Source: Candidatus Minusculum obligatum
GTDB lineage: Bacteria; Patescibacteriota; Minisyncoccia; Phycocordibacterales; Phycocordibacteraceae
DNA length: 64,000 nt
Reading direction: 5' to 3'
Assembly (NCBI GenBank): GCA_002331145.1
Contig: DCYT01000002.1
Coordinates: 23,337 to 87,336, forward strand
A model generated the notes under the pieces. That model searched no databases. It was given only the letters and a program-made list of their open reading frames with translations, and was not told where the DNA came from. Of this stretch, positions 6,282 through 49,963 are shown piece after piece. Position 1 is the stretch's first letter. Every line of letters starts with the position of its first letter. The position numbers and the translations under genes are program-made.

Positions 6282-9143
6282 ATGATTTCAAAACCAAAAA
6301 ATATCCTTGCATATGCAAAAGCACATCCGATTAAGTCGGCTGTTCTTGGTGCATTTACATTTTTTACAATTCTAGGTGCAGGCTTTGGAACATTTTATGC
6401 AATTGCACCTGAGAGTGCAGAGGCACTTATTACAGGTGGGCCTGGATGTTGCGGAGGAACTTATGATCCAATTATCGTTGATCCTTGGATTCCTGGCGGA
6501 GGAGGTGGCTTCGGCGGAGGAGGTGGCGGAGGAGGTGGATCTGCTCCTGCTCCAACATGTACGCTTTCTGCTAATCCAAACTCAATTCTTGCAGGAGGAA
6601 GCTCAACGCTCACTTGGACAACAAGTTATGCAAATGAGGTAACTATCGATAATGGTGTCGGAGGAGTTGCCATTGGTTCTGGGACAACAAGTGTAAGTCC
6701 ACCAAACACAACAACCTATAGGCTTTCTGCTACAAACACTATAACGGGACGAACTACTGTGTGTACTGCAGCAGTAACTGTTACTCCAGCTCCAGTAGCG
6801 CCAAGCTGTACGCTTGATATTGCGCCTGCAGTTGTTGAGCTTGGAAATTCAGCTTCAGCATCTTGGACAACAACAAACGGAAGCACTTTTAGTATTAGTG
6901 GAGGAATTGGGCCTGTAACACCAGTTGCAGCAGGAAGCACAACAATTACACCAACAGCTCTCGGTACGTATACATATATTGGAGTAGTAACGAGCGCCAC
7001 AGGAGAAACTGCGACGTGTACTGACTCACTTGAGGTCATTCCACCAATTGTGGTGAATGCGCCAAGTTGTGAACTCAATGTCATTCCAGAGACAATTACT
7101 ATTGGAGATACAGTATCTATTGAGTGGGACACTCGATTTGCTAACACATTTAGTATTGATAATGGAATTGGAGCAATTTCAATTCTTACAACACCAGTTG
7201 CGGGAGGAGTTGTAAAAACAGTGCCAACAACAGAAGGGACAATTACCTACACGGGAACAGTAACAGCGCTCGATGGAACTACTGTGACATGTTCTGATAC
7301 GGTAAACGTACTTCCTGTTGGAGTGGATGCTCCTGCATGTACCCTTACTACCGATGGACTTGGTGCTGGGGAAACTGAAACAACAATCTACTGGACACTC
7401 ATCAATGTAGTTTCAGCAACTCTAAATGGAAAGAGTATTGCTCCTGTTGATGGTTCACAAACTGTAGGGGCAGGAACCTACACTCTTACTGGATCAAATA
7501 CAGATGGAGTTGAGGTTACGTGTGGACTTGTAATCGAACCGCCGCTTGATGGACCTGCTTGTACGCTAACAGCAGACAAACTTTCTCTTGCTCCAGGTGA
7601 GACAACTACAATCAACTGGACAATTAACAACGCAACAGAAGCAACGCTACAGCACCTTGATGCAGTTTCTATCATTGATCCAACAGATGGATCACAGTCT
7701 GCGGTTGCAGGAACGTACACACTTTCTGTAGGGAATGGAGTACAGAGTGACACGTGTGAGGTAACAATTGCAACAGTAACTCCAGGAGTACTTAGTTGTA
7801 CGCTCGATATTGACGAGGGTGTTATTCGATCTGGACAGTCAGCGAATATGACGTGGAGTACCAATGAGGCTGTCTCATTTACTATCAATGGAGATGATAA
7901 GGATCTTTCAGGAACTGAAGTTATTCGTCCACTGGGAGTACAGATCTATACATACACAGGAATTGCGACAGACGCAGATGGAAACACTGTTGAGTGTGCA
8001 GATACTATTCAGGTAACAGGAGGATCAGGTGGAGGAGGTCTCTCATGTGCAATGAGCTTCACCGAGTCTAATATTAAGAGTGGAGGGAAATCAACACTTC
8101 GATGGGAGGTTAACAATGCTGATCCAAGCACCATTGAAATTAATCAGGGAATTGGAAGTGTAGATCCAATTGATAGTGCTGATGTTACCAAGAATGCTGT
8201 TGGAACACATGAGTATATTCTTACCGCTCGTGGAGATGGAGATCAGGTAACATGTCGAGCAACCCTAACTGTTTCAGGAGGATCAGGTGGATGTACAAGT
8301 GGTTGTGGAGGTGGAAGCCGCCTGCCACAGGTGACTATCGATTTCCTTAAGGGGCCAAATGAGCAGCCTCTTGCCTTTGTTACTCTTTCACAAATTCCAT
8401 ATACAGGAATTGAGCTTGGGCAATTTGGCACAGTTATTTACTGGCTATTCCTAACAATCTGGAGCGGTGCAGTTGCATACCTTGTATTGTTCAAGATTGT
8501 GCCATTTACAGGCCGAAAACTGGCTGCAGTTAAGAATGGTGTGTCTGAGGCGATAAATGCCACAGAAGAGGGTACAATGGATATAACTATGCATGAGGAA
8601 ATGGAAGATATTCAAATGGATGGATTCTCTCCAAAGCAAGGAGATGAAGCTCTTTCTGTTGAAGATATTGTTCGTGGTCTCTCACGAATGCATCAAGAGT
8701 CTCGACCTGTCGCATCTGAGATTGAGGTGGAGGAGGAAGAGCCTGAGGTGTATGAGGCCGATGTAGCGCGCGAGATGGAAACAGCTCCAGTACAAACAGC
8801 AACACCACACTCTACTGGAGAAGAGCTTCAGCTACTCAATGCTCTTATGAGTGGAGATCGAGACACAAGCTTTAGTTTGCTGCGACGTGCAACTCGAAAT
8901 GGAGGTCGTCCAGATCTATTGATTGAGAAAGTGCTTGTGCACCTTGATGCTGCATATCGAGCACGAATTGATGGAATTCCTTGTTCTGAGGATGTGCGAC
9001 GAGCAACTGCAGCTCTAGATACTGCGCTTCTTGAGGAGGTGATTAGTTCTCTTGCATCTGCAATTGATACAACATATTCACAGTCTCAAACTGGAGCAAA
9101 GCTAGCGCTCGCTAGGGCGCACGCGGTGATTGAGCGCGGATAA
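6282..9143 (+). CDS. Large surface protein. It has an N-terminal TM anchor, a Gly-rich segment, seven tandem Ig-like repeats of about 95 aa with two cysteines each, an internal sortase-like IPYTG motif followed by a TM helix and K/R, and a ~230-aa acidic/helical C-terminal tail.
   Basis: 953-aa continuous ORF. GGGGGFGGGGGGGGGS after TM1. Each repeat begins (P/L)(T/S/A)C(T/E/A)L...W(T/D)... and ends ...TC.. . Then SQIPYTGIELGQFGTVIYWLFLTIWSGAVAYLVLFKIVPFTGRK, followed by a cytoplasmic tail containing EIEVEEEEPEVYEAD. Confidence 0.8.
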   Translation: MISKPKNILAYAKAHPIKSAVLGAFTFFTILGAGFGTFYAIAPESAEALITGGPGCCGGTYDPIIVDPWIPGGGGGFGGGGGGGGGSAPAPTCTLSANPNSILAGGSSTLTWTTSYANEVTIDNGVGGVAIGSGTTSVSPPNTTTYRLSATNTITGRTTVCTAAVTVTPAPVAPSCTLDIAPAVVELGNSASASWTTTNGSTFSISGGIGPVTPVAAGSTTITPTALGTYTYIGVVTSATGETATCTDSLEVIPPIVVNAPSCELNVIPETITIGDTVSIEWDTRFANTFSIDNGIGAISILTTPVAGGVVKTVPTTEGTITYTGTVTALDGTTVTCSDTVNVLPVGVDAPACTLTTDGLGAGETETTIYWTLINVVSATLNGKSIAPVDGSQTVGAGTYTLTGSNTDGVEVTCGLVIEPPLDGPACTLTADKLSLAPGETTTINWTINNATEATLQHLDAVSIIDPTDGSQSAVAGTYTLSVGNGVQSDTCEVTIATVTPGVLSCTLDIDEGVIRSGQSANMTWSTNEAVSFTINGDDKDLSGTEVIRPLGVQIYTYTGIATDADGNTVECADTIQVTGGSGGGGLSCAMSFTESNIKSGGKSTLRWEVNNADPSTIEINQGIGSVDPIDSADVTKNAVGTHEYILTARGDGDQVTCRATLTVSGGSGGCTSGCGGGSRLPQVTIDFLKGPNEQPLAFVTLSQIPYTGIELGQFGTVIYWLFLTIWSGAVAYLVLFKIVPFTGRKLAAVKNGVSEAINATEEGTMDITMHEEMEDIQMDGFSPKQGDEALSVEDIVRGLSRMHQESRPVASEIEVEEEEPEVYEADVAREMETAPVQTATPHSTGEELQLLNALMSGDRDTSFSLLRRATRNGGRPDLLIEKVLVHLDAAYRARIDGIPCSEDVRRATAALDTALLEEVISSLASAIDTTYSQSQTGAKLALARAHAVIERG

Positions 9144-9170
9144 TACTCGATCATTTTTTACCGATGTATA

Positions 9171-9199
9171 AAAACAGCACTCGTATGAGTGCTGTTTTT
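9171..9199. terminator. Bidirectional intrinsic terminator downstream of the surface-protein gene
   Basis: aaaacagcactc-gtat-gagtgctgtttt: a perfect 12-bp stem flanked by A- and T-runs. Confidence 0.6.
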
Positions 9200-9201
9200 A
9201 T

Positions 9202-9237
9202 AACTACGTAGTTAATTACGTAATTAACTACGTAGTT
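9202..9237. repeat. Perfect 36-bp palindrome aactacgtagttaattacgtaattaactacgtagtt, with three TACGTA cores, overlapping the thrS stop codon.
   Basis: The sequence equals its own reverse complement, verified base by base. It sits exactly at a convergent gene junction. A sibling perfect palindrome at 39066-39101 shares the core ttaactacgtagttaa. Confidence 0.75.
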
Positions 9238-10982
9238 GGTGCAAGTGCTCGAGAGTCTCGCTCTTCTATAAGTTTTTGGATAAAGTCATCTACGTTTACT
9301 CCATCAAGTTTTCCAAGGTCTCGATGCTCAGGAGAAACTTCATTGCTCTCAACTTCTTTATCTCCAACAACAATTACATATGGAACTTTTTGTCCTTTGA
9401 ATCCATAGATACGCTTTCCAAGAGAAATGTTCTCAGCATTTACTTCAACTCGAATATTTTGCGCTTCAAGTTTTTCTTTTAGTTCTTGTGTGTATGCTGC
9501 ATGGTCTTCTGATACTGGCACAAGCCCAACTTGTATAGGTGAGAGCCATAGAGGGAATGCTCCTGCAAAATGCTCAATTGCAACTCCTAGGAATCGCTCA
9601 AGAGATCCTGAGATAGCTCGGTGGATCATAACAGGGCGCTTTTTCTTTCCATCACTGTCTGTATATTCAAGCTTAAATCGCTCAGGAAGGTTGAAATCAA
9701 GCTGTGCGGTAGCTAATTGCCACTCTCGTCCAATTGCGTCAGTTGCAACAAAATCAATTTTTGGACCATAGAATGCTGCCTCTCCAGGCTCAGTTACGTA
9801 CTCTTTTCCAATCTCTTCAATACAAGACTTCAAAGTGTTGATTGAATTTTCCCAAAGCTCAGGAGTTCCAAGGTACTTCTCTGGCTCCTCAGGATCATTG
9901 GTAGAAAGTCTTACTGCAAGTGGCATATCAAAGGCTTCGTAGAAGTTTTTGATGATGTCGTAGATTGCGAGCACCTCGTCTTTTACTTGATCTTCAGTAC
10001 AAAATACATGGGCATCGTCCTGTGTAATTGATCGAACTCGAGTGAGTCCTGCAAGTTGCCCTGTATTTTCGTCTCGATATACCGTTGTTACCTCAGAGTA
10101 CCTGATAGGGAGATCTTTGTATGAGCGAGGTTGTGAGGCAAAGATTTGTGTGTGGTGAGGACAGTTCATCGGCTTCATGATGAACTCGTCATCTGTCTTC
10201 TTGCTTTTTACAAAGAAAATATCATCTGCAAACTTGTCATAGTGTCCACTTGTTTTGTAGAGATCACACTTTGCCATATGAGGAATATTTACACGCTCAT
10301 ATCCATAAGGCTTTGCAAGTTCCCACACAAACTCTTCAAGCTCTTTACGCATGATATTTCCCTTGGGTGTAAATAGGGGAAGTCCAGAACCAACAAGAGG
10401 AGAGAATGCAAAGAGATCAAGCTCCTTTCCAATCTTTCGATGGTCTCGCTTTTTTGCCTCTTCTTGTTGTTCTTTGTATGCATCAAGATCAGCTTTAGAT
10501 TCAAATGCTATTCCATAGATACGAGTAAGCATTTGATTGTTCTCATCTCCCTGCCAGTATGCTCCAGCAACATTTGAGAGCATGAAGGCTTCGGGATCAA
10601 TGTCCTTTGAAGACTCTACGTGAGGTCCTTCACAAAGATCTGTGAAGTTTCCAATAGTGTATGTAGAAAGTTTCGCACCTTCGTCATTTAGCTTTTCAAT
10701 GAGTTCAAGCTTATGAGTCTGGTCCTTGAAGCGCTGCTTTGCATCCTCGTATGTAATTTCATGCATCTCAGGAGTAAATCCTTCTTTGAGTATTTCGCGC
10801 ATAAGTTCCTCCAGTTTTGGAAGATTCTCCTCATTTACAGGAGATGAGAGTTCAATATCGTAATAAAAACCATTGTCTGTTGCAGGTCCCGTTCCGAATT
10901 TTGCCTTATCATCGTGCTCGAGCACAGCGCCTGCAAGTATGTGTGCTAGAGAGTGTCGAATCTTCAAAAGTTTGTCATCCAT
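9228..10982 (-). CDS. thrS: Threonine--tRNA ligase, a short form without the N-terminal TGS domain
   Basis: 584 aa. Editing-domain His motif RHSLAHILAGAV, class II core (HRKIGKELDLF, MNCPHH, FYGPKIDF) and a C-terminal anticodon-binding domain. Confidence 0.9.
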   Translation of the reverse strand: MDDKLLKIRHSLAHILAGAVLEHDDKAKFGTGPATDNGFYYDIELSSPVNEENLPKLEELMREILKEGFTPEMHEITYEDAKQRFKDQTHKLELIEKLNDEGAKLSTYTIGNFTDLCEGPHVESSKDIDPEAFMLSNVAGAYWQGDENNQMLTRIYGIAFESKADLDAYKEQQEEAKKRDHRKIGKELDLFAFSPLVGSGLPLFTPKGNIMRKELEEFVWELAKPYGYERVNIPHMAKCDLYKTSGHYDKFADDIFFVKSKKTDDEFIMKPMNCPHHTQIFASQPRSYKDLPIRYSEVTTVYRDENTGQLAGLTRVRSITQDDAHVFCTEDQVKDEVLAIYDIIKNFYEAFDMPLAVRLSTNDPEEPEKYLGTPELWENSINTLKSCIEEIGKEYVTEPGEAAFYGPKIDFVATDAIGREWQLATAQLDFNLPERFKLEYTDSDGKKKRPVMIHRAISGSLERFLGVAIEHFAGAFPLWLSPIQVGLVPVSEDHAAYTQELKEKLEAQNIRVEVNAENISLGKRIYGFKGQKVPYVIVVGDKEVESNEVSPEHRDLGKLDGVNVDDFIQKLIEERDSRALAPTT

Positions 10983-24550: not shown

Positions 24551-24740
24551 CAGCTTTGTTGACAGTAAACTAACAAAAGCATATACTCCTAGTGACGAAT
24601 TTACGACTGAGTTACGGGAGCAACGAGAGATTTTCGTACAATTAAAGAGATTACTAAATTGAGCGCACAGCGTAGCGCGAGCCCTTGTATATTGGGTTCA
24701 ATTTTTGCGTCTACCTGTTTAACAAAAACATAACTCGGCT

Positions 24741-38242: not shown

Positions 38243-39067
38243 ATGGGCCAGTATACCATGGAAGTTTTTACAGCCATCATCCTTGGTCTTATCCAAGGAA
38301 TCACAGAATTTCTCCCAATTTCGTCAACCGGACACCTTGTTTTGGTGCAAGAATTCTTAGGAGTATCTGATATTTACGGGCTTTCTTTTGATGCAATCTT
38401 ACACCTTGCTACTGCCTTGGCTGTTGGAATCTACTTTTTTAAAGATTTTCTAAAGATTGCCTATGCATTTCTTTATAGAATTACAGGTCGTCCAGTTGTA
38501 AAAGAGGATGAGACAATGCTCTTGCTTCTCATTATCGGAACTATTCCAGCTGCAGCATTGGGATTTTATTTAGAAGATTACATGGATACCATCTTCCGGA
38601 ATCCTGTTTTGGTTGCCTGGACACTTATCTTGGGAGCCCTTATCTTCCTTTTGGCTGAGTGGGTGGGGAAGCGATATCAGGAGCAAGAAGAAGTTCCTAC
38701 AAAAATGAAAGCACTTTGGATTGGATTCTTCCAAGCGCTCGCCCTTATTCCAGGAATGAGTCGCTCTGGTATGACAATCTCAGGAGGATTGATGCTTGGT
38801 CTTACAAGAGAGGCTGCAGCACGCTTTGGATTTATGTTGGCTTTTCCAATTATCCTTGGATCTGGAGGAAAGAAGTTTCTCGATCTTCTAAATGCTGGAA
38901 CTTTTGATGCAAATATTGCTCCAATATTCTGGGGAGCAGTTGCAGCGTTTGTAAGTGGGCTTTTGGTTATTCATTACCTTCTAAAATTCCTGCGAAATCA
39001 TTCGCTTACTGTATTTGCGGTGTATAGAATACTATTGGCAATAGTTGTGCTTGTTTGGTTTGTCTAA
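38243..39067 (+). CDS. uppP: Undecaprenyl-diphosphate phosphatase
   Basis: ITEFLPISSTGHLVL and PGMSRSGMTISGGLMLGL signatures. 8 TM helices. Confidence 0.9.
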   Translation: MGQYTMEVFTAIILGLIQGITEFLPISSTGHLVLVQEFLGVSDIYGLSFDAILHLATALAVGIYFFKDFLKIAYAFLYRITGRPVVKEDETMLLLLIIGTIPAAALGFYLEDYMDTIFRNPVLVAWTLILGALIFLLAEWVGKRYQEQEEVPTKMKALWIGFFQALALIPGMSRSGMTISGGLMLGLTREAAARFGFMLAFPIILGSGGKKFLDLLNAGTFDANIAPIFWGAVAAFVSGLLVIHYLLKFLRNHSLTVFAVYRILLAIVVLVWFV

Positions 39068-39101
39068 CTACTGAGTTAACTACGTAGTTAACTCAGTAGT
39101 T
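39066..39101. repeat. Perfect 36-bp palindrome aactactgagttaactacgtagttaactcagtagtt, filling the gap between convergent uppP and the exonuclease gene
   Basis: Equals its own reverse complement. Overlaps the uppP stop (39065-39067) and ends 1 nt before the exonuclease stop. Shares the ttaactacgtagttaa core with the palindrome at 9202-9237. Confidence 0.75.
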
Positions 39102-39102
39102 G

Positions 39103-39678
39103 CTAAAGACCTAAAGTTTGCGTCACAGCCCCTCCATCTGATTTATCCCACTCTGAAGTATCGATTTTAATATCTCGAATCTCATTAAGGTCTTTCCACT
39201 TAATGATTCCGTTTTCTTTTGCATATTCAAAAATATCTTTTGTTACTTTCACGTCCTGAAGACAATACTCACGCACTTTGTCTACGAGTCCTTGCTGCCA
39301 CCATTCAATAGCCTTAAGTCCATCAGCACTTTTTCCTTCTCCAAGTGTTGCTTCAGCTAAGTTATTTAGACGAATACGTCGCCCAAGGGATTTATGTACA
39401 TCCTTTAGAAGATCAATGCTTTTAATATTTGTTAAATCACCAGGATAGTATTTGTTGAGGAGGGGAATATCGAACGTATCTGAGTTAAATCCAATAAGAG
39501 CATCAGTTGATTCAACTAGTGGCCAGAAGTTTATAAGCTCTTCTGCTGTGTAGCTTGTGTACTCGTCTGTTTTGCTGTTGTAGGCACCCAAAATGGCGAT
39601 ATCCAGTGTTGTTACCGTCTTCTCATTAATATACGGAAGAGTATCCGTTGTTTCGATATCGAATACTATGTAGTTCAT
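39103..39678 (-). CDS. DEDD-family 3'-5' exonuclease (DnaQ-like fold)
   Basis: Exo I IVFDIETTD, Exo II GFNSDTFDIPLL, Exo III YCLQDVKVT (DEDDy type). 191 aa. Confidence 0.7.
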   Translation of the reverse strand: MNYIVFDIETTDTLPYINEKTVTTLDIAILGAYNSKTDEYTSYTAEELINFWPLVESTDALIGFNSDTFDIPLLNKYYPGDLTNIKSIDLLKDVHKSLGRRIRLNNLAEATLGEGKSADGLKAIEWWQQGLVDKVREYCLQDVKVTKDIFEYAKENGIIKWKDLNEIRDIKIDTSEWDKSDGGAVTQTLGL

Positions 39679-44046: not shown

Positions 44047-44078
44047 AAAAACAGTGGACAATATTGTCCACTGTTTTT
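44047..44078. terminator. Perfect 32-bp palindromic terminator (aaaaacagtggacaat|attgtccactgttttt)
   Basis: 16-bp arms with A5/T5 flanks built in. Follows the DUF1360 stop. Confidence 0.7.
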
Positions 44079-49903: not shown

Positions 49904-49963
49904 TTCTACGTATACTGAGTGTAGCAATAAAGTGTAGGTATTTCTGTAAATTACGTAGTTTTT
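49904..49963. repeat. Degenerate copy of the TACGTA palindrome family, in a divergent intergenic region
   Basis: ttctacgtatactgagtg ... aattacgtagttttt resembles aactactgagtt / aactacgtagtt from the two perfect palindromes. Confidence 0.35.

What the first reader, a model, noticed from the sequence alone, without database searches (positions are those of the whole stretch)
9202..9237. Family of perfect 36-bp palindromes with TACGTA cores at convergent gene junctions
Two 36-nt sequences, aactacgtagttaattacgtaattaactacgtagtt at 9202-9237 and aactactgagttaactacgtagttaactcagtagtt at 39066-39101, are each exactly self-complementary. They share the core ttaactacgtagttaa. Each sits at the meeting point of two convergent genes and overlaps a stop codon (thrS and uppP respectively). 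Degenerate relatives occur at 49904-49963 and possibly at 24603-24625 (ttacgactgagttacg). Perfect 36-bp palindromes are unlikely by chance in 64 kb. They could act as bidirectional terminators, as binding sites for a dimeric protein, or as recombination or restriction-related sites (TACGTA is itself a 6-bp palindrome).
Basis: seen in the sequence. Interest (0 to 1): 0.6.

Follow-up and report, generated by a model that had tools for sequence, protein, structure and literature searches.

The report
Stop-codon-hugging palindromic repeat family
The two perfect 36-bp palindromes are real members of a small dispersed repeat family, most like bacterial REP elements, that sits on gene stop codons in tiny-genome marine Patescibacteria, keeps its sequence and positions across diverged relatives, and turns up almost unchanged in unrelated phyla; what copies it and what it does are unknown.

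Summary
Confirmed. Window 9202-9237 and 39066-39101 are exact 36-bp palindromes (about 1e-6 expected by chance). Each is built from three 12-bp units.

They belong to a family.
- The sister genome UBA3533 (about 95% identical) has at least 10 dispersed copies.
- A relative about 80% identical has 7, all at orthologous sites. Cores are 160/160 identical in five pairs, against about 18% flank divergence.
- Two orthologous sites switched between the two sequence types, with all six differences symmetric.

Copies are always intergenic. Eight of 10 touch a stop codon and 6 of 10 lie at convergent junctions (P about 0.002). Several sit beside a canonical terminator, and none has a U-tract. Both strands carry stops in 2 or 3 frames.

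Presence varies within the clade. The uppP and thrS sites are empty in some relatives.

The same 32-nt core occurs in Chlorobiota and Bacteroidales MAGs. It was not found in isolates, plasmids or phages, and a sequence-string literature search found nothing.

Best reading (about 0.45): a REP-like, GTAG-type, copy-and-paste hairpin element tolerated at gene ends. Its transcript caps 3' ends and stops translation.

Rivals are a protein-binding array and a recombination site.

The parts
9202..9237 (.). Palindrome 1, type A-B-A. Units are at 9202-9213, 9214-9225 and 9226-9237. It is a perfect 36-bp dyad.
   Evidence: The identical sequence occupies the orthologous thrS 3' end in UBA3533 (L023/L075). 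It is 35/36 identical in Ga0316204_10000037 (L062).
9228..10982 (-). thrS, threonyl-tRNA synthetase, 584 aa. Its last two codons (ACT ACG) and its stop TAG (9228-9230) are supplied by palindrome 1.
   Evidence: C-termini of homologues...PTT* where the palindrome is present, and ...P*...PKA* or ...PTS* where it is absent.
9170..9199 (.). Canonical bidirectional intrinsic terminator (A5-CAGCACTC-GTAT-GAGTGCTG-T5), 2 nt from palindrome 1. It lies downstream of both convergent genes.
   Evidence: It is conserved, with a compensatory stem change, in L062. It is also present in relatives that lack the palindrome (L107, L110).
6282..9143 (+). 953-aa ORF with no Pfam match. It is the convergent partner of thrS.
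39066..39101 (.). Palindrome 2, type C-A-C'. Units are at 39066-39077, 39078-39089 and 39090-39101. It is a perfect 36-bp dyad with stop codons in all six frames.
   Evidence: The same sequence with one mismatch is in UBA3533 at L099 11564-11599, between two extra genes. Identical copies occur at other UBA3533 loci (L022/L033, L025).
38243..39067 (+). uppP (BacA, undecaprenyl-diphosphatase). Its stop TAA is formed by a T plus the first AA of palindrome 2.
39103..39678 (-). RNase_H_2 / PolB-exo-like exonuclease gene, the last gene of the hisS operon. Its stop TAG lies 1 nt beyond palindrome 2.
   Evidence: In relative L103 its stop and the uppP stop overlap in TTAA with no palindrome, which is the empty site.
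49904..49963 (.). It is not accepted as a family member.
   Evidence: It lies in a divergent promoter spacer between a small membrane-protein gene and a DUF2177 gene. It has no phased units. It is only partly conserved in L113.

Best explanation
The palindromes are members of a small dispersed repeat family of the REP kind, most like head-to-head dimers of GTAG-tagged REPs.

Proposed mechanism, with shown and inferred steps marked:
1. A 32-44-bp dyad is built from TTAA-phased 12-bp units (shown).
2. The dyad is copied to new intergenic sites, and existing copies are homogenised, by an unidentified process acting in trans. A hairpin-recognising single-strand DNA enzyme of the RAYT/IS200 type, or gene conversion between copies, are candidates (inferred).
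3. In these 94%-coding, roughly 0.6-Mb genomes, copies survive only where they do no harm. That is immediately after, or overlapping, a stop codon, mostly where two genes converge (inferred from the positions seen).
4. They can overlap gene ends because the element supplies TAA/TAG stops, plus TGA in the C-A-C' type. These cover 2 or 3 frames on both strands (shown).
5. Once in place, the element is transcribed as the first part of the 3' UTR. There it folds into a perfect 16-bp stem with a 4-nt loop (fold is predicted; transcription is inferred).
6. I infer that the hairpin caps the mRNA 3' end or blocks read-through into the convergent gene. I also infer that it ends translation in any frame, and that this is why copies persist.
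For: Family and copying:
- The same 36-mers occur at 10 or more loci on at least 8 contigs of UBA3533 and at 7 loci of Ga0316204_10000037.
- A copy is present at the uppP junction only in the window/UBA3533 lineage. L102 has a remnant there. L103 has an empty site, TTAA. L105 and L106 have none.
- The thrS copy is absent from L107 and L110, which fall inside the same ThrS clade, and from the outgroups L108 and L109.

Homogenisation:
- Two orthologous sites carry C-A-C' in UBA3533 and A-B-A in Ga0316204. All 6 differences are symmetric, and the result is identical to other copies in the same genome.

Constraint:
- All 7 Ga0316204 sites have an ortholog in UBA3533.
- Cores are 160/160 identical in five pairs, against 73-88% identity in the flanks.

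Position:
- All copies are intergenic. Eight of 10 abut or overlap a stop codon, 6 of 10 are convergent (P = 0.002), and none lies at a divergent junction.
- At thrS and L092 the order is stop codon, then palindrome, then canonical terminator. That places the palindrome in a 3' UTR.

Structure:
- Predicted RNA hairpins have z-scores of -5 to -9. DNA hairpins fold at -14 kcal/mol.
- Degenerate arrays in other lineages keep a whole-array hairpin (L019, L020, L021, L003, L080).
- Stop codons by frame are computed.

Precedent:
- GTAG REPs are 20-40-bp palindromes lying mostly downstream of ORFs, between unidirectional and convergent genes.
- No target-site duplication was found, as with REPs.
Against: - No copying enzyme was found. 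No Y1/HUH transposase, integrase or ParB gene appears in the window or in the Pfam-annotated neighbourhoods of relatives. Whole genomes could not be scanned.
- Copy number is about 10 per genome, far below typical REP families.
- The GTAG is paired and symmetric, not an unpaired tag at one end.
- REP families are normally lineage-specific. This core is near-identical in Patescibacteria, Chlorobiota and Bacteroidales MAGs.
- The 12-bp modular units are not explained by a hairpin role alone.
- Perfect conservation at 7 of 7 old sites fits a sequence-specific binding site as well as it fits homogenisation.
- There are no expression data, so the RNA role is inference.
- Some copies lie after a terminator (L033/L063), where they may not be transcribed.
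Confidence: 0.45

Rival explanations
1. The palindromes are arrays of binding sites for a sequence-specific dimeric DNA-binding protein. Each 12-bp palindromic unit (TTAAC-TACGTA-GTTAA register) would bind one dimer, and three dimers would bind cooperatively, as MetJ does on tandem metboxes or KorB/ParB/Noc on dispersed palindromes. Placed at transcriptionally quiet gene ends, the arrays would serve chromosome organisation or act as transcription roadblocks.
For: - The unit vocabulary (A, B, C, C') and the strict 12-bp phasing are shared across lineages.
- Sequence conservation at orthologous sites is perfect.
- There are about 10 dispersed sites per 0.6-Mb genome, a number typical of such systems.
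- The same core occurring in several phyla recalls parS, from my own knowledge.
- No canonical parS was found in about 350 kb of clade DNA, so that role is not visibly filled.
Against: - New 36-bp sites identical to the others cannot arise by point mutation, so a copying step is still needed.
- The non-palindromic C and C' units are placed so that only the whole element is symmetric.
- Degenerate arrays preserve the whole-array hairpin rather than unit consensus.
- Two coexisting sequence types and type switching are awkward for one binding protein.
- No candidate binding protein was found nearby.
- The half-site matches parS at only 3 of 8 positions by my own comparison, and no parS within 3 mismatches occurs in the window.
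Confidence: 0.25
2. They are simply bidirectional transcription terminators, or transcript-end hairpins, that evolved in place at convergent junctions. The two convergent stop codons are naturally reverse complements and could seed a stem.
For: - The hairpins are strong.
- Palindrome 2 is the only structure between uppP and the exonuclease gene.
- Relatives in other lineages have A and T tracts flanking the same core and look like true intrinsic terminators (L004, L007, L040, L088).
Against: - Independent evolution in place cannot give identical 32-36-mers at 10 loci and in several phyla.
- Window copies lack U-tracts and are AT-rich.
- A canonical terminator already sits beside palindrome 1 and beside other copies.
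- The relative L103 manages with no spacer at all.
Confidence: 0.1
3. They are symmetric target sites for a tyrosine recombinase of the lox or dif type. The sequence parses as a 14-bp arm, an 8-bp centre and a 14-bp arm. The arm resembles the loxP arm ATAACTTCGTATA. Such sites would allow gene-cassette gain, loss or inversion at gene ends, a natural analogue of the loxPsym sites placed after stop codons in synthetic yeast.
For: - The 14+8+14 parse fits both types, and the two types differ in the centre (read directly from the sequence).
- Gene content differs right next to the palindrome at the uppP site. The window has none, UBA3533 has Exo_endo_phos and CDPS on either side, and L102 has one extra gene.
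- Gene content also differs on one side of the comFC site.
- The resemblance to loxP is recalled from memory and is a lead only.
Against: - The extra genes are not flanked by a second copy, as site-specific integration would require.
- No inversion or rearrangement was seen at any of the 7 shared sites despite about 20% divergence; flanks are syntenic on at least one side at all 7 and clearly on both at five.
- No recombinase gene was seen in the annotated neighbourhoods.
- The uppP-to-exonuclease gap also varies in relatives that have no palindrome.
Confidence: 0.08
4. They are DNA-uptake signal sequences, like the Neisseria DUS or the Haemophilus USS. Those often occur as inverted pairs at gene ends and show lineage 'dialects'.
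For: - Patescibacteria keep competence genes. Two copies abut comEC and a comFC-like gene.
- Several neighbours are DNA-metabolism genes: ogt, rnhA, an exonuclease and ham1.
- The A-B-A versus C-A-C' difference between lineages resembles a dialect.
Against: - About 10 copies per genome is orders of magnitude too few for uptake bias to work.
- Sharing across phyla argues against a self-recognition signal.
Confidence: 0.03
5. The palindromes are chance matches or technical artefacts, such as an adaptor, a linker or an assembly error.
For: - All extended copies come from metagenome-derived sequences, and none from isolates.
- The sequence resembles synthetic stop-codon linkers, from memory.
Against: - The chance expectation is 1e-6.
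- The same locus with the palindrome was recovered by independent assemblies and projects: UBA/NCBI, Tara, ENA megahit, Logan and JGI.
- The flanking genes are complete.
- Positions are orthologous across diverged genomes.
- Degenerate variants occur on a 2.1-Mb MAG contig (L019, L020).
Confidence: 0.01

Closest known systems
GTAG-tagged REP elements and their head-to-head dimers (REPINs), mobilised by RAYT tyrosine transposases (Di Nocera et al. 2013, PMC3733652; Bertels & Rainey 2011, PMC3116915)
   Same: - Both are 20-40-bp palindromic dispersed repeats in extragenic space.
- Both lie mostly downstream of ORFs, between convergent or co-directional genes.
- In both, the termini can supply the TAG stop of the flanking ORF.
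- REPs form head-to-head dimers, with spacers as short as 1-2 bp, that fold into one large hairpin.
- Neither makes a target-site duplication.
- Both show sub-types that differ by complementary stem changes.
   Different: - Only about 10 copies per genome, against tens to hundreds.
- The dyad is perfect, with zero spacer.
- The GTAG is paired (CTAC|GTAG) rather than being an unpaired tag.
- The build is modular, in 12-bp units.
- The element is AT-rich.
- The same core occurs in several phyla.
- No RAYT gene was found, though whole genomes were not searchable.
E. coli REP sequences close to stop codons (Liang, Rudd & Deutscher 2015; from my own knowledge, not checked here)
   Same: A stable hairpin lies within a few nucleotides of a stop codon. 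In E. coli this stalls the terminating ribosome and lowers expression of the upstream gene. Here 8 of 10 copies abut or overlap a stop codon.
   Different: The effect has not been tested in this lineage. Here the stop codon is often inside the stem itself.
Neisseria DUS inverted pairs and Correia elements
   Same: Both are short repeats at gene ends that double as terminator-like hairpins. Both show lineage dialects.
   Different: Copy number is far lower here. There is no TA duplication and no internal sequence. The element is shared across phyla.
parS / KorB O_B / Noc-binding palindromes; MetJ metbox arrays
   Same: Both are short exact palindromes with an ACGT centre and about 10 dispersed copies. 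Both are conserved across lineages. Tandem palindromic boxes give a larger dyad.
   Different: The sequence does not match parS. Copies sit at stop codons. Copies are gained as whole 36-bp blocks. No binding protein has been identified.
loxP / loxPsym and dif-type recombination sites
   Same: Both are inverted 13-14-bp arms around an 8-bp centre, 34-36 bp in total. In synthetic yeast, loxPsym is placed just after stop codons.
   Different: There is no recombinase and no recombination products, and synteny is kept at shared sites.

Membership tests
REP / REPIN (GTAG superfamily) | A 20-40-bp palindromic repeat located in extragenic space. | tested here: met
   The dyads are 32-44 bp, and all copies lie between ORFs.
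REP / REPIN (GTAG superfamily) | High copy number, typically tens to hundreds per genome. | tested here: not met
   The pattern used found at least 10 copies in UBA3533, 7 in the 555-kb contig Ga0316204_10000037, and 2 in this 64-kb window. Copies with a different centre would have been missed.
REP / REPIN (GTAG superfamily) | An unpaired GTAG (or GTGG) tag at one end of the stem-loop. | tested here: not met
   GTAG is present three times per element but always paired with CTAC inside the stem. It fits only if the element is read as fused head-to-head dimers.
REP / REPIN (GTAG superfamily) | Preferential location downstream of ORFs, between convergent or unidirectional genes, with termini supplying TAG stops. 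| tested here: met
   Six sites are convergent, 4 co-directional and none divergent. The thrS, rnhA and ogt stops lie inside the element. The feature is described in PMC3733652.
REP / REPIN (GTAG superfamily) | A cognate RAYT (Y1 HUH transposase) gene in the genome, often flanked by REPs. | not testable with these tools
   None was seen in the window or in the annotated loci. Complete genomes could not be scanned.
Rho-independent (intrinsic) terminator | A GC-rich stem of 5-14 bp and a short loop, immediately followed by a U-tract. | tested here: not met
   The stems are 28-33% GC. Neither side of either window copy has a T-tract. The consensus scan does not call them. Some relatives elsewhere do have T-tracts (L004, L007, L040, L088).
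MITE | Terminal inverted repeats around an internal sequence, flanked by a target-site duplication, usually 50-500 bp. | tested here: not met
   There is no internal sequence. No consistent duplication is seen in the flanks or in the filled-versus-empty comparisons.
Integron attC | An imperfect palindrome with R''/L''-L'/R' boxes and extrahelical bases, arranged in cassette arrays next to intI. | tested here: not met
   The dyads are perfect, copies are about 30-50 kb apart and flank housekeeping genes, and there is no array.
parS (ParB centromere) | The 16-bp palindrome TGTTNCACGTGAAACA, clustered near the origin and bound by ParB. | tested here: not met
   No match within 3 mismatches was found in the window or in clade loci. 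The palindromes share only the ACGT centre with parS. Copies lie on at least 8 different contigs.
DNA uptake sequence (DUS/USS) | Hundreds to thousands of copies per genome. | tested here: not met
   There is about 1 copy per 50 kb.
lox/dif-type tyrosine-recombinase site | Inverted arms around a 6-8-bp crossover region. | tested here: inconclusive
   A 14+8+14 parse is possible for both types, but any 36-bp dyad can be parsed this way.
lox/dif-type tyrosine-recombinase site | Recombination products (inversion, deletion or integration) bounded by the sites, and a cognate recombinase. | tested here: not met
   No rearrangement was seen at the 7 shared sites; synteny holds on at least one side at all 7 and clearly on both at five. 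The extra genes at the uppP site are not bounded by a second copy. No recombinase was seen in the loci.
Rfam RNA families / TIGR arrays | A match to a curated covariance model, or tandem guide-RNA units with box C/D. | tested here: not met
   There is no gathering-score hit in the window. Below threshold only generic hairpin (miRNA) matches appear. The elements are solitary and have no box C.

The most novel reading that the evidence does not exclude
This would be a previously undescribed class of ultra-short (32-44 bp) hairpin element mobilised in trans. It carries its own six-frame translational stop, which lets it insert into the last codons of essential genes in highly compact genomes. It has spread between phyla (Patescibacteria, Chlorobiota, Bacteroidota). 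Alternatively, the same sites are natural symmetric recombination or binding sites placed at stop codons that organise gene-cassette turnover.
Probability: 0.2. Interest if true: 0.8.

Novelty: new variant of a known kind. Interest (0 to 1): 0.55.

Why it matters
Patescibacteria (CPR) genomes are thought to be streamlined and nearly free of repeats. Four properties make this family unusual for a dispersed repeat there:
- Copies stay sequence-perfect and in the same positions across about 20% divergence.
- New copies are still being gained.
- The element overlaps the stop codons of essential genes such as thrS.
- The same core recurs in other phyla.

If it is mobile, it would be among the smallest mobile DNAs known, and a marker of DNA exchange between CPR bacteria and other community members. 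If it is a binding or processing site, it points to an unrecognised layer of 3'-end or chromosome organisation in organisms that cannot yet be cultured.

In practice the repeats break assemblies. UBA3533 scaffolds have gaps exactly at copies. The repeats also alter predicted C-termini.

Tried and rejected
- **Adaptor, linker or assembly artefact: rejected.** Independent assemblies and projects recover the same locus. The flanking genes are intact. Positions are orthologous in diverged genomes.
- **Phage or plasmid origin: no support.** The viral-contig scan gave only 2 chance hits with a 6-bp core. PLSDB plasmids gave no match. GenBank phages gave one 22-nt chance match.
- **Known RNA family: none found**.
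- **Literature searches.** Searches for the sequence strings found nothing relevant. A Patescibacteria/palindrome search led only to TIGR-Tas arrays, which do not fit.
- **Canonical parS:** absent from the window and clade loci, and the palindromes do not resemble it.
- **Restriction-site avoidance or enrichment:** TACGTA frequency is normal.
- **Target-site duplication or a conserved flanking tetranucleotide** (IS200/IS605-style target): none found.
- **Further copies or other unit combinations** in the window and in about 130 kb from other relatives: none found.
- **About 35 metagenome hits** (Ga0056115, Ga0209568 and others) turned out to be an unrelated element in ORF-poor, eukaryote-like DNA with CAGTG... 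termini. I set them aside. L074 is likewise eukaryote-like.
- **G-U versus A-C mismatches as a sign of RNA-level selection:** too few cases to judge, about 2 against 2 in L019.
Full report
**1. Observation**

- Window 9202-9237 reads AACTACGTAGTTAATTACGTAATTAACTACGTAGTT. Window 39066-39101 reads AACTACTGAGTTAACTACGTAGTTAACTCAGTAGTT. Both are exactly self-complementary.
- With this base composition, 1.4e-6 such palindromes are expected in 64 kb.
- Each palindrome is three 12-bp units. The first is A-B-A, with A = AACTACGTAGTT and B = AATTACGTAATT. The second is C-A-C', with C = AACTACTGAGTT and C' its reverse complement.
The 12-mer A is the true shared core.
- Palindrome 1 lies between a 953-aa ORF (+) and thrS (-). 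The thrS reading frame ends ...gca ccA ACT ACG TAG, so the last two codons and the stop lie inside the palindrome.
- Palindrome 2 fills the whole spacer between uppP (+) and an RNase-H-fold exonuclease gene (-). The uppP TAA uses the palindrome's first two bases. The exonuclease TAG lies 1 nt past its end.
- A textbook bidirectional terminator (9170-9199) lies 2 nt from palindrome 1.

**2. Source and relatives**

- The gene content is that of a small Patescibacteria (CPR) chromosome: pheT, gyrB, a sortase, dnaE, thrS, a pilin, rnhB, nusB, smc, rnr, hisS, many Dsb/thioredoxin genes, and no mobile-element genes. RNase III, dnaG, rpoD and rpoC are named from the syntenic, Pfam-annotated loci of relatives, not from a search of the window ORFs.
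- The window is 42% GC and about 94% coding.
- The window is 100% identical to Tara/JGI contigs (L111, L112).
- It is about 95% identical to MAG UBA3533.
- It is about 79% identical to the 555-kb contig Ga0316204_10000037.
- A protein identical to the window's DUF2177 sits on a 602,686-bp contig, so the genome is about 0.6 Mb.

**3. The family within the clade**

- I scanned one genome per species (GTDB) for AGTTAANTACGTANTTAACT. This found 9 places in UBA3533: 8 family copies, one of them imperfect, and the thrS copy among them. The mismatched copy in L099 and any copies hidden in gaps would add to that count.
- Some UBA3533 copies sit at scaffold gaps, as expected when a repeat breaks an assembly.
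- The metagenome scan recovered the same UBA3533 loci from the Tara assembly. It also found 7 copies in Ga0316204_10000037.
- No other unit combinations or long dyads of this kind occur in the clade loci.

**4. Conservation of position**

- All 7 Ga0316204 sites are orthologous to UBA3533 sites. Five pairs (ogt, rnhA/comEC, ABC-2/pfkB, FKBP/tgt, thrS) are syntenic on both sides.
- At the comFC site the adjacent genes differ on one side. At the clpP site only one side aligns clearly.
- In five pairs the 32-nt core is identical at 160 of 160 positions. The 120-nt flanks are 73-88% identical. At 18% divergence that outcome has a probability of about 1e-14.
- At the other two sites UBA3533 carries C-A-C' and Ga0316204 carries A-B-A. 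All six differences are symmetric, and each version is identical to other copies in its own genome.
- This is concerted evolution: copying between sites or re-insertion. It is not independent compensatory mutation.

**5. Gain and loss**

At the uppP-exonuclease junction:
- Relative L103 (UppP 82% identical) has an empty site. The two stop codons overlap in TTAA.
- The window has the palindrome alone.
- UBA3533 has uppP > Exo_endo_phos > palindrome (one mismatch) < cyclodipeptide synthase < exonuclease.
- L102 has Exo_endo_phos plus a decayed remnant (...ACGTAGTTg...).
- L105 and L106 have other genes, ordinary terminators and no palindrome.

At the thrS 3' end:
- Relatives L107 and L110, which fall inside the same ThrS clade, and the outgroups L108 and L109, lack the palindrome.
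- L107 and L110 keep the AGCACTC...GAGTGCT terminator.
- The outgroups end ...CCA TAA. The filled sites read ...CC[A ACT ACG TAG ...GTAGTT]A TAA AAA.
- This is what a clean 36-bp insertion into the last codon would give, with no target duplication.

So copies are gained as whole blocks, and they are lost or decay.

**6. Where copies sit**

- Of 10 distinct sites in the clade, 6 are between convergent genes. About 17% of junctions in the window are convergent, which gives a binomial P of 0.002.
- Four sites are between co-directional genes. None is in a divergent promoter region.
- In 8 of 10, a flanking gene's stop codon is inside the dyad or touches it.
- In one case (rnhA-palindrome-comEC) the comEC ATG abuts the other end of the dyad in both genomes.
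- The neighbours are ordinary housekeeping genes: thrS, uppP, ogt, rnhA, comEC, a comFC-like gene, clpP, tgt, an FKBP gene, ABC-2, pfkB and ham1.
- Several copies lie between a stop codon and a canonical terminator, or directly beside one.

**7. Intrinsic properties**

- As RNA, each folds into a perfect 16-bp stem with a 4-nt loop. With flanks the z-scores are -5 to -9. As single-stranded DNA the fold is -14 kcal/mol.
- The stems are 28-33% GC, and the window copies have no U-tract. They are therefore not canonical intrinsic terminators.
- Reading in from either side, frames 2 and 3 hit TAG or TAA within 12 nt. The C unit adds a TGA in frame 1. The C-A-C' type therefore stops translation in all six frames.

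**8. Beyond the clade**

- The core CTACGTAG-TTAA-CTACGTAG-TTAA-CTACGTAG (type A-A-A) occurs as a 32-42-bp perfect dyad in several other MAGs:
  - a Chlorobiota MAG, two copies (L002, L006);
  - Candidatus Spechtbacterales, two copies (L004, L007);
  - Bacteroidales (L017) and Rikenellaceae (L024).
- These MAG loci range from 37% to 56% GC and sit beside ordinary chromosomal genes such as a fucosidase, a beta-galactosidase and metG.
- Degenerate 4-5-unit arrays with the same unit vocabulary occur on a 2.1-Mb Bacteroidales contig (L019, L020), in a Woesebacteria MAG (L021) and in other contigs. L080 is an example, lying between pgk and a HIT gene whose stops touch the element.
- Most of these arrays still fold as one long hairpin.
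- Hits in isolate genomes were only chance 6-bp cores.
- Nothing was found in phage contigs, GenBank phages or PLSDB plasmids.
- About half of the metagenome hits are an unrelated element in ORF-poor, eukaryote-like DNA.

**9. Interpretation**

- Exact reuse at many sites, block-wise gain, type switching and the cross-phylum core together require a copy-and-paste process.
- Whole-element dyad symmetry, including the non-palindromic C and C' units, points to a hairpin or cruciform as the relevant form. So does the retention of whole-array hairpins in degenerate members.
- The location, the supply of TAG stops, the lack of a target duplication and the head-to-head CTAC|GTAG junctions all match published features of GTAG-type REP elements and their dimers (PMC3733652).
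- I therefore rank a REP-like hairpin element first, at about 0.45. Such an element would be tolerated and probably useful at transcript ends, capping the 3' end, insulating convergent genes and stopping translation in any frame.
- Shown: family membership, conservation, positions, gain and loss, fold potential and stop-codon content.
- Inferred: the copying mechanism, transcription of the element and any benefit.
- Strict REP membership fails on copy number and on the unpaired-tag criterion. The RAYT criterion could not be tested. I file it as a new variant, not a member.

**10. Rivals**

- **Protein-binding array, about 0.25.** This explains the 12-bp units, the perfect conservation and the parS-like spread across phyla. 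It still needs a copying step and has no candidate protein.
- **Plain terminator evolved in place, about 0.1.** This cannot explain sequence identity between sites.
- **Recombination site, about 0.08.** The 14+8+14 parse and the gene-content changes next to two copies are suggestive. Against it, no rearrangement was seen at any shared site, and the extra genes are not bounded by a second copy.
- **Uptake signal, about 0.03.** There are too few copies.
- **Chance or artefact, about 0.01 or less.** Excluded.

**11. Limits**

- Only sequence around pattern hits and around three proteins' homologues could be fetched. No complete genome of the clade could be scanned.
- Total copy number, chromosomal distribution and the presence of a cognate enzyme therefore remain open.
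- No expression data were available.

Noticed in passing
window 44047-44078: A 32-bp perfect palindrome, AAAAACAGTGGACAATATTGTCCACTGTTTTT, follows the DUF1360 gene. It is a textbook bidirectional intrinsic terminator and is unrelated to the TACGTA family. In UBA3533 two extra genes (GcrA-like and ArsR-like) are annotated just after the DUF1360 gene; GcrA has no counterpart in the window, and ArsR was not checked.
   Followed up: partly
window 9170-9199; L023 5195-5230: The thrS-side terminator (AGCACTC-N4-GAGTGCT stem) is conserved across the clade with a compensatory stem change. In UBA3533 it is itself a perfect 36-bp palindrome directly abutting the family palindrome.
   Followed up: partly
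window 39067-39103 and loci L099, L102, L103, L105, L106: The gap between uppP and the exonuclease gene is a hot spot of gene-content change in this clade. Depending on the genome it holds nothing, the palindrome only, Exo_endo_phos plus a cyclodipeptide synthase, Exo_endo_phos plus NfeD plus a flotillin, or an unknown 189-aa gene.
   Followed up: partly
L031, L067, L054 and about 30 other loci from Ga0056115, Ga0209568, Ga02097xx and Ga0049105/7: This is an unrelated multi-copy element in ORF-poor, eukaryote-like DNA. It has a conserved terminus, CAGTGATGGGCA..., followed by several GTAGTTAACTAC boxes. It looks like a Tc1/mariner-type transposon end with repeated binding boxes.
   Followed up: partly
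L028 8404-8439 / L083 4983-5020: In the rnhA-palindrome-comEC arrangement, the comEC ATG abuts the palindrome in two diverged genomes. That leaves no room for a ribosome-binding site outside the hairpin, so translational coupling or hairpin control of comEC is possible.
   Followed up: no
L108 3922-5094: In a more distant relative, a gene combining a reverse-transcriptase domain (RVT_1) with a DnaG-type zinc ribbon lies just downstream of thrS, in the position where the window has the palindrome and terminator.
   Followed up: no
window 6282-9143 and 9228-10982: The 953-aa ORF convergent with thrS has no Pfam match, and the corresponding ORFs in relatives are 701-875 aa (some may be incomplete calls). 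ThrS is a short 584-aa form with no match to the N-terminal TGS domain.
   Followed up: no
L012, L014, L025 (UBA3533 scaffolds): Runs of about 300 N start or end exactly at family palindromes. The repeat evidently breaks short-read assemblies, so copy number in MAGs is probably underestimated.
   Followed up: partly
L034 2109-2145 (= L009): UBA3533 has an imperfect hybrid copy, C - (B/A) - A, with 3 mismatched pairs. It lies in a longer spacer away from any stop codon. It is either a decaying copy or a recombinant between the two types.
   Followed up: partly
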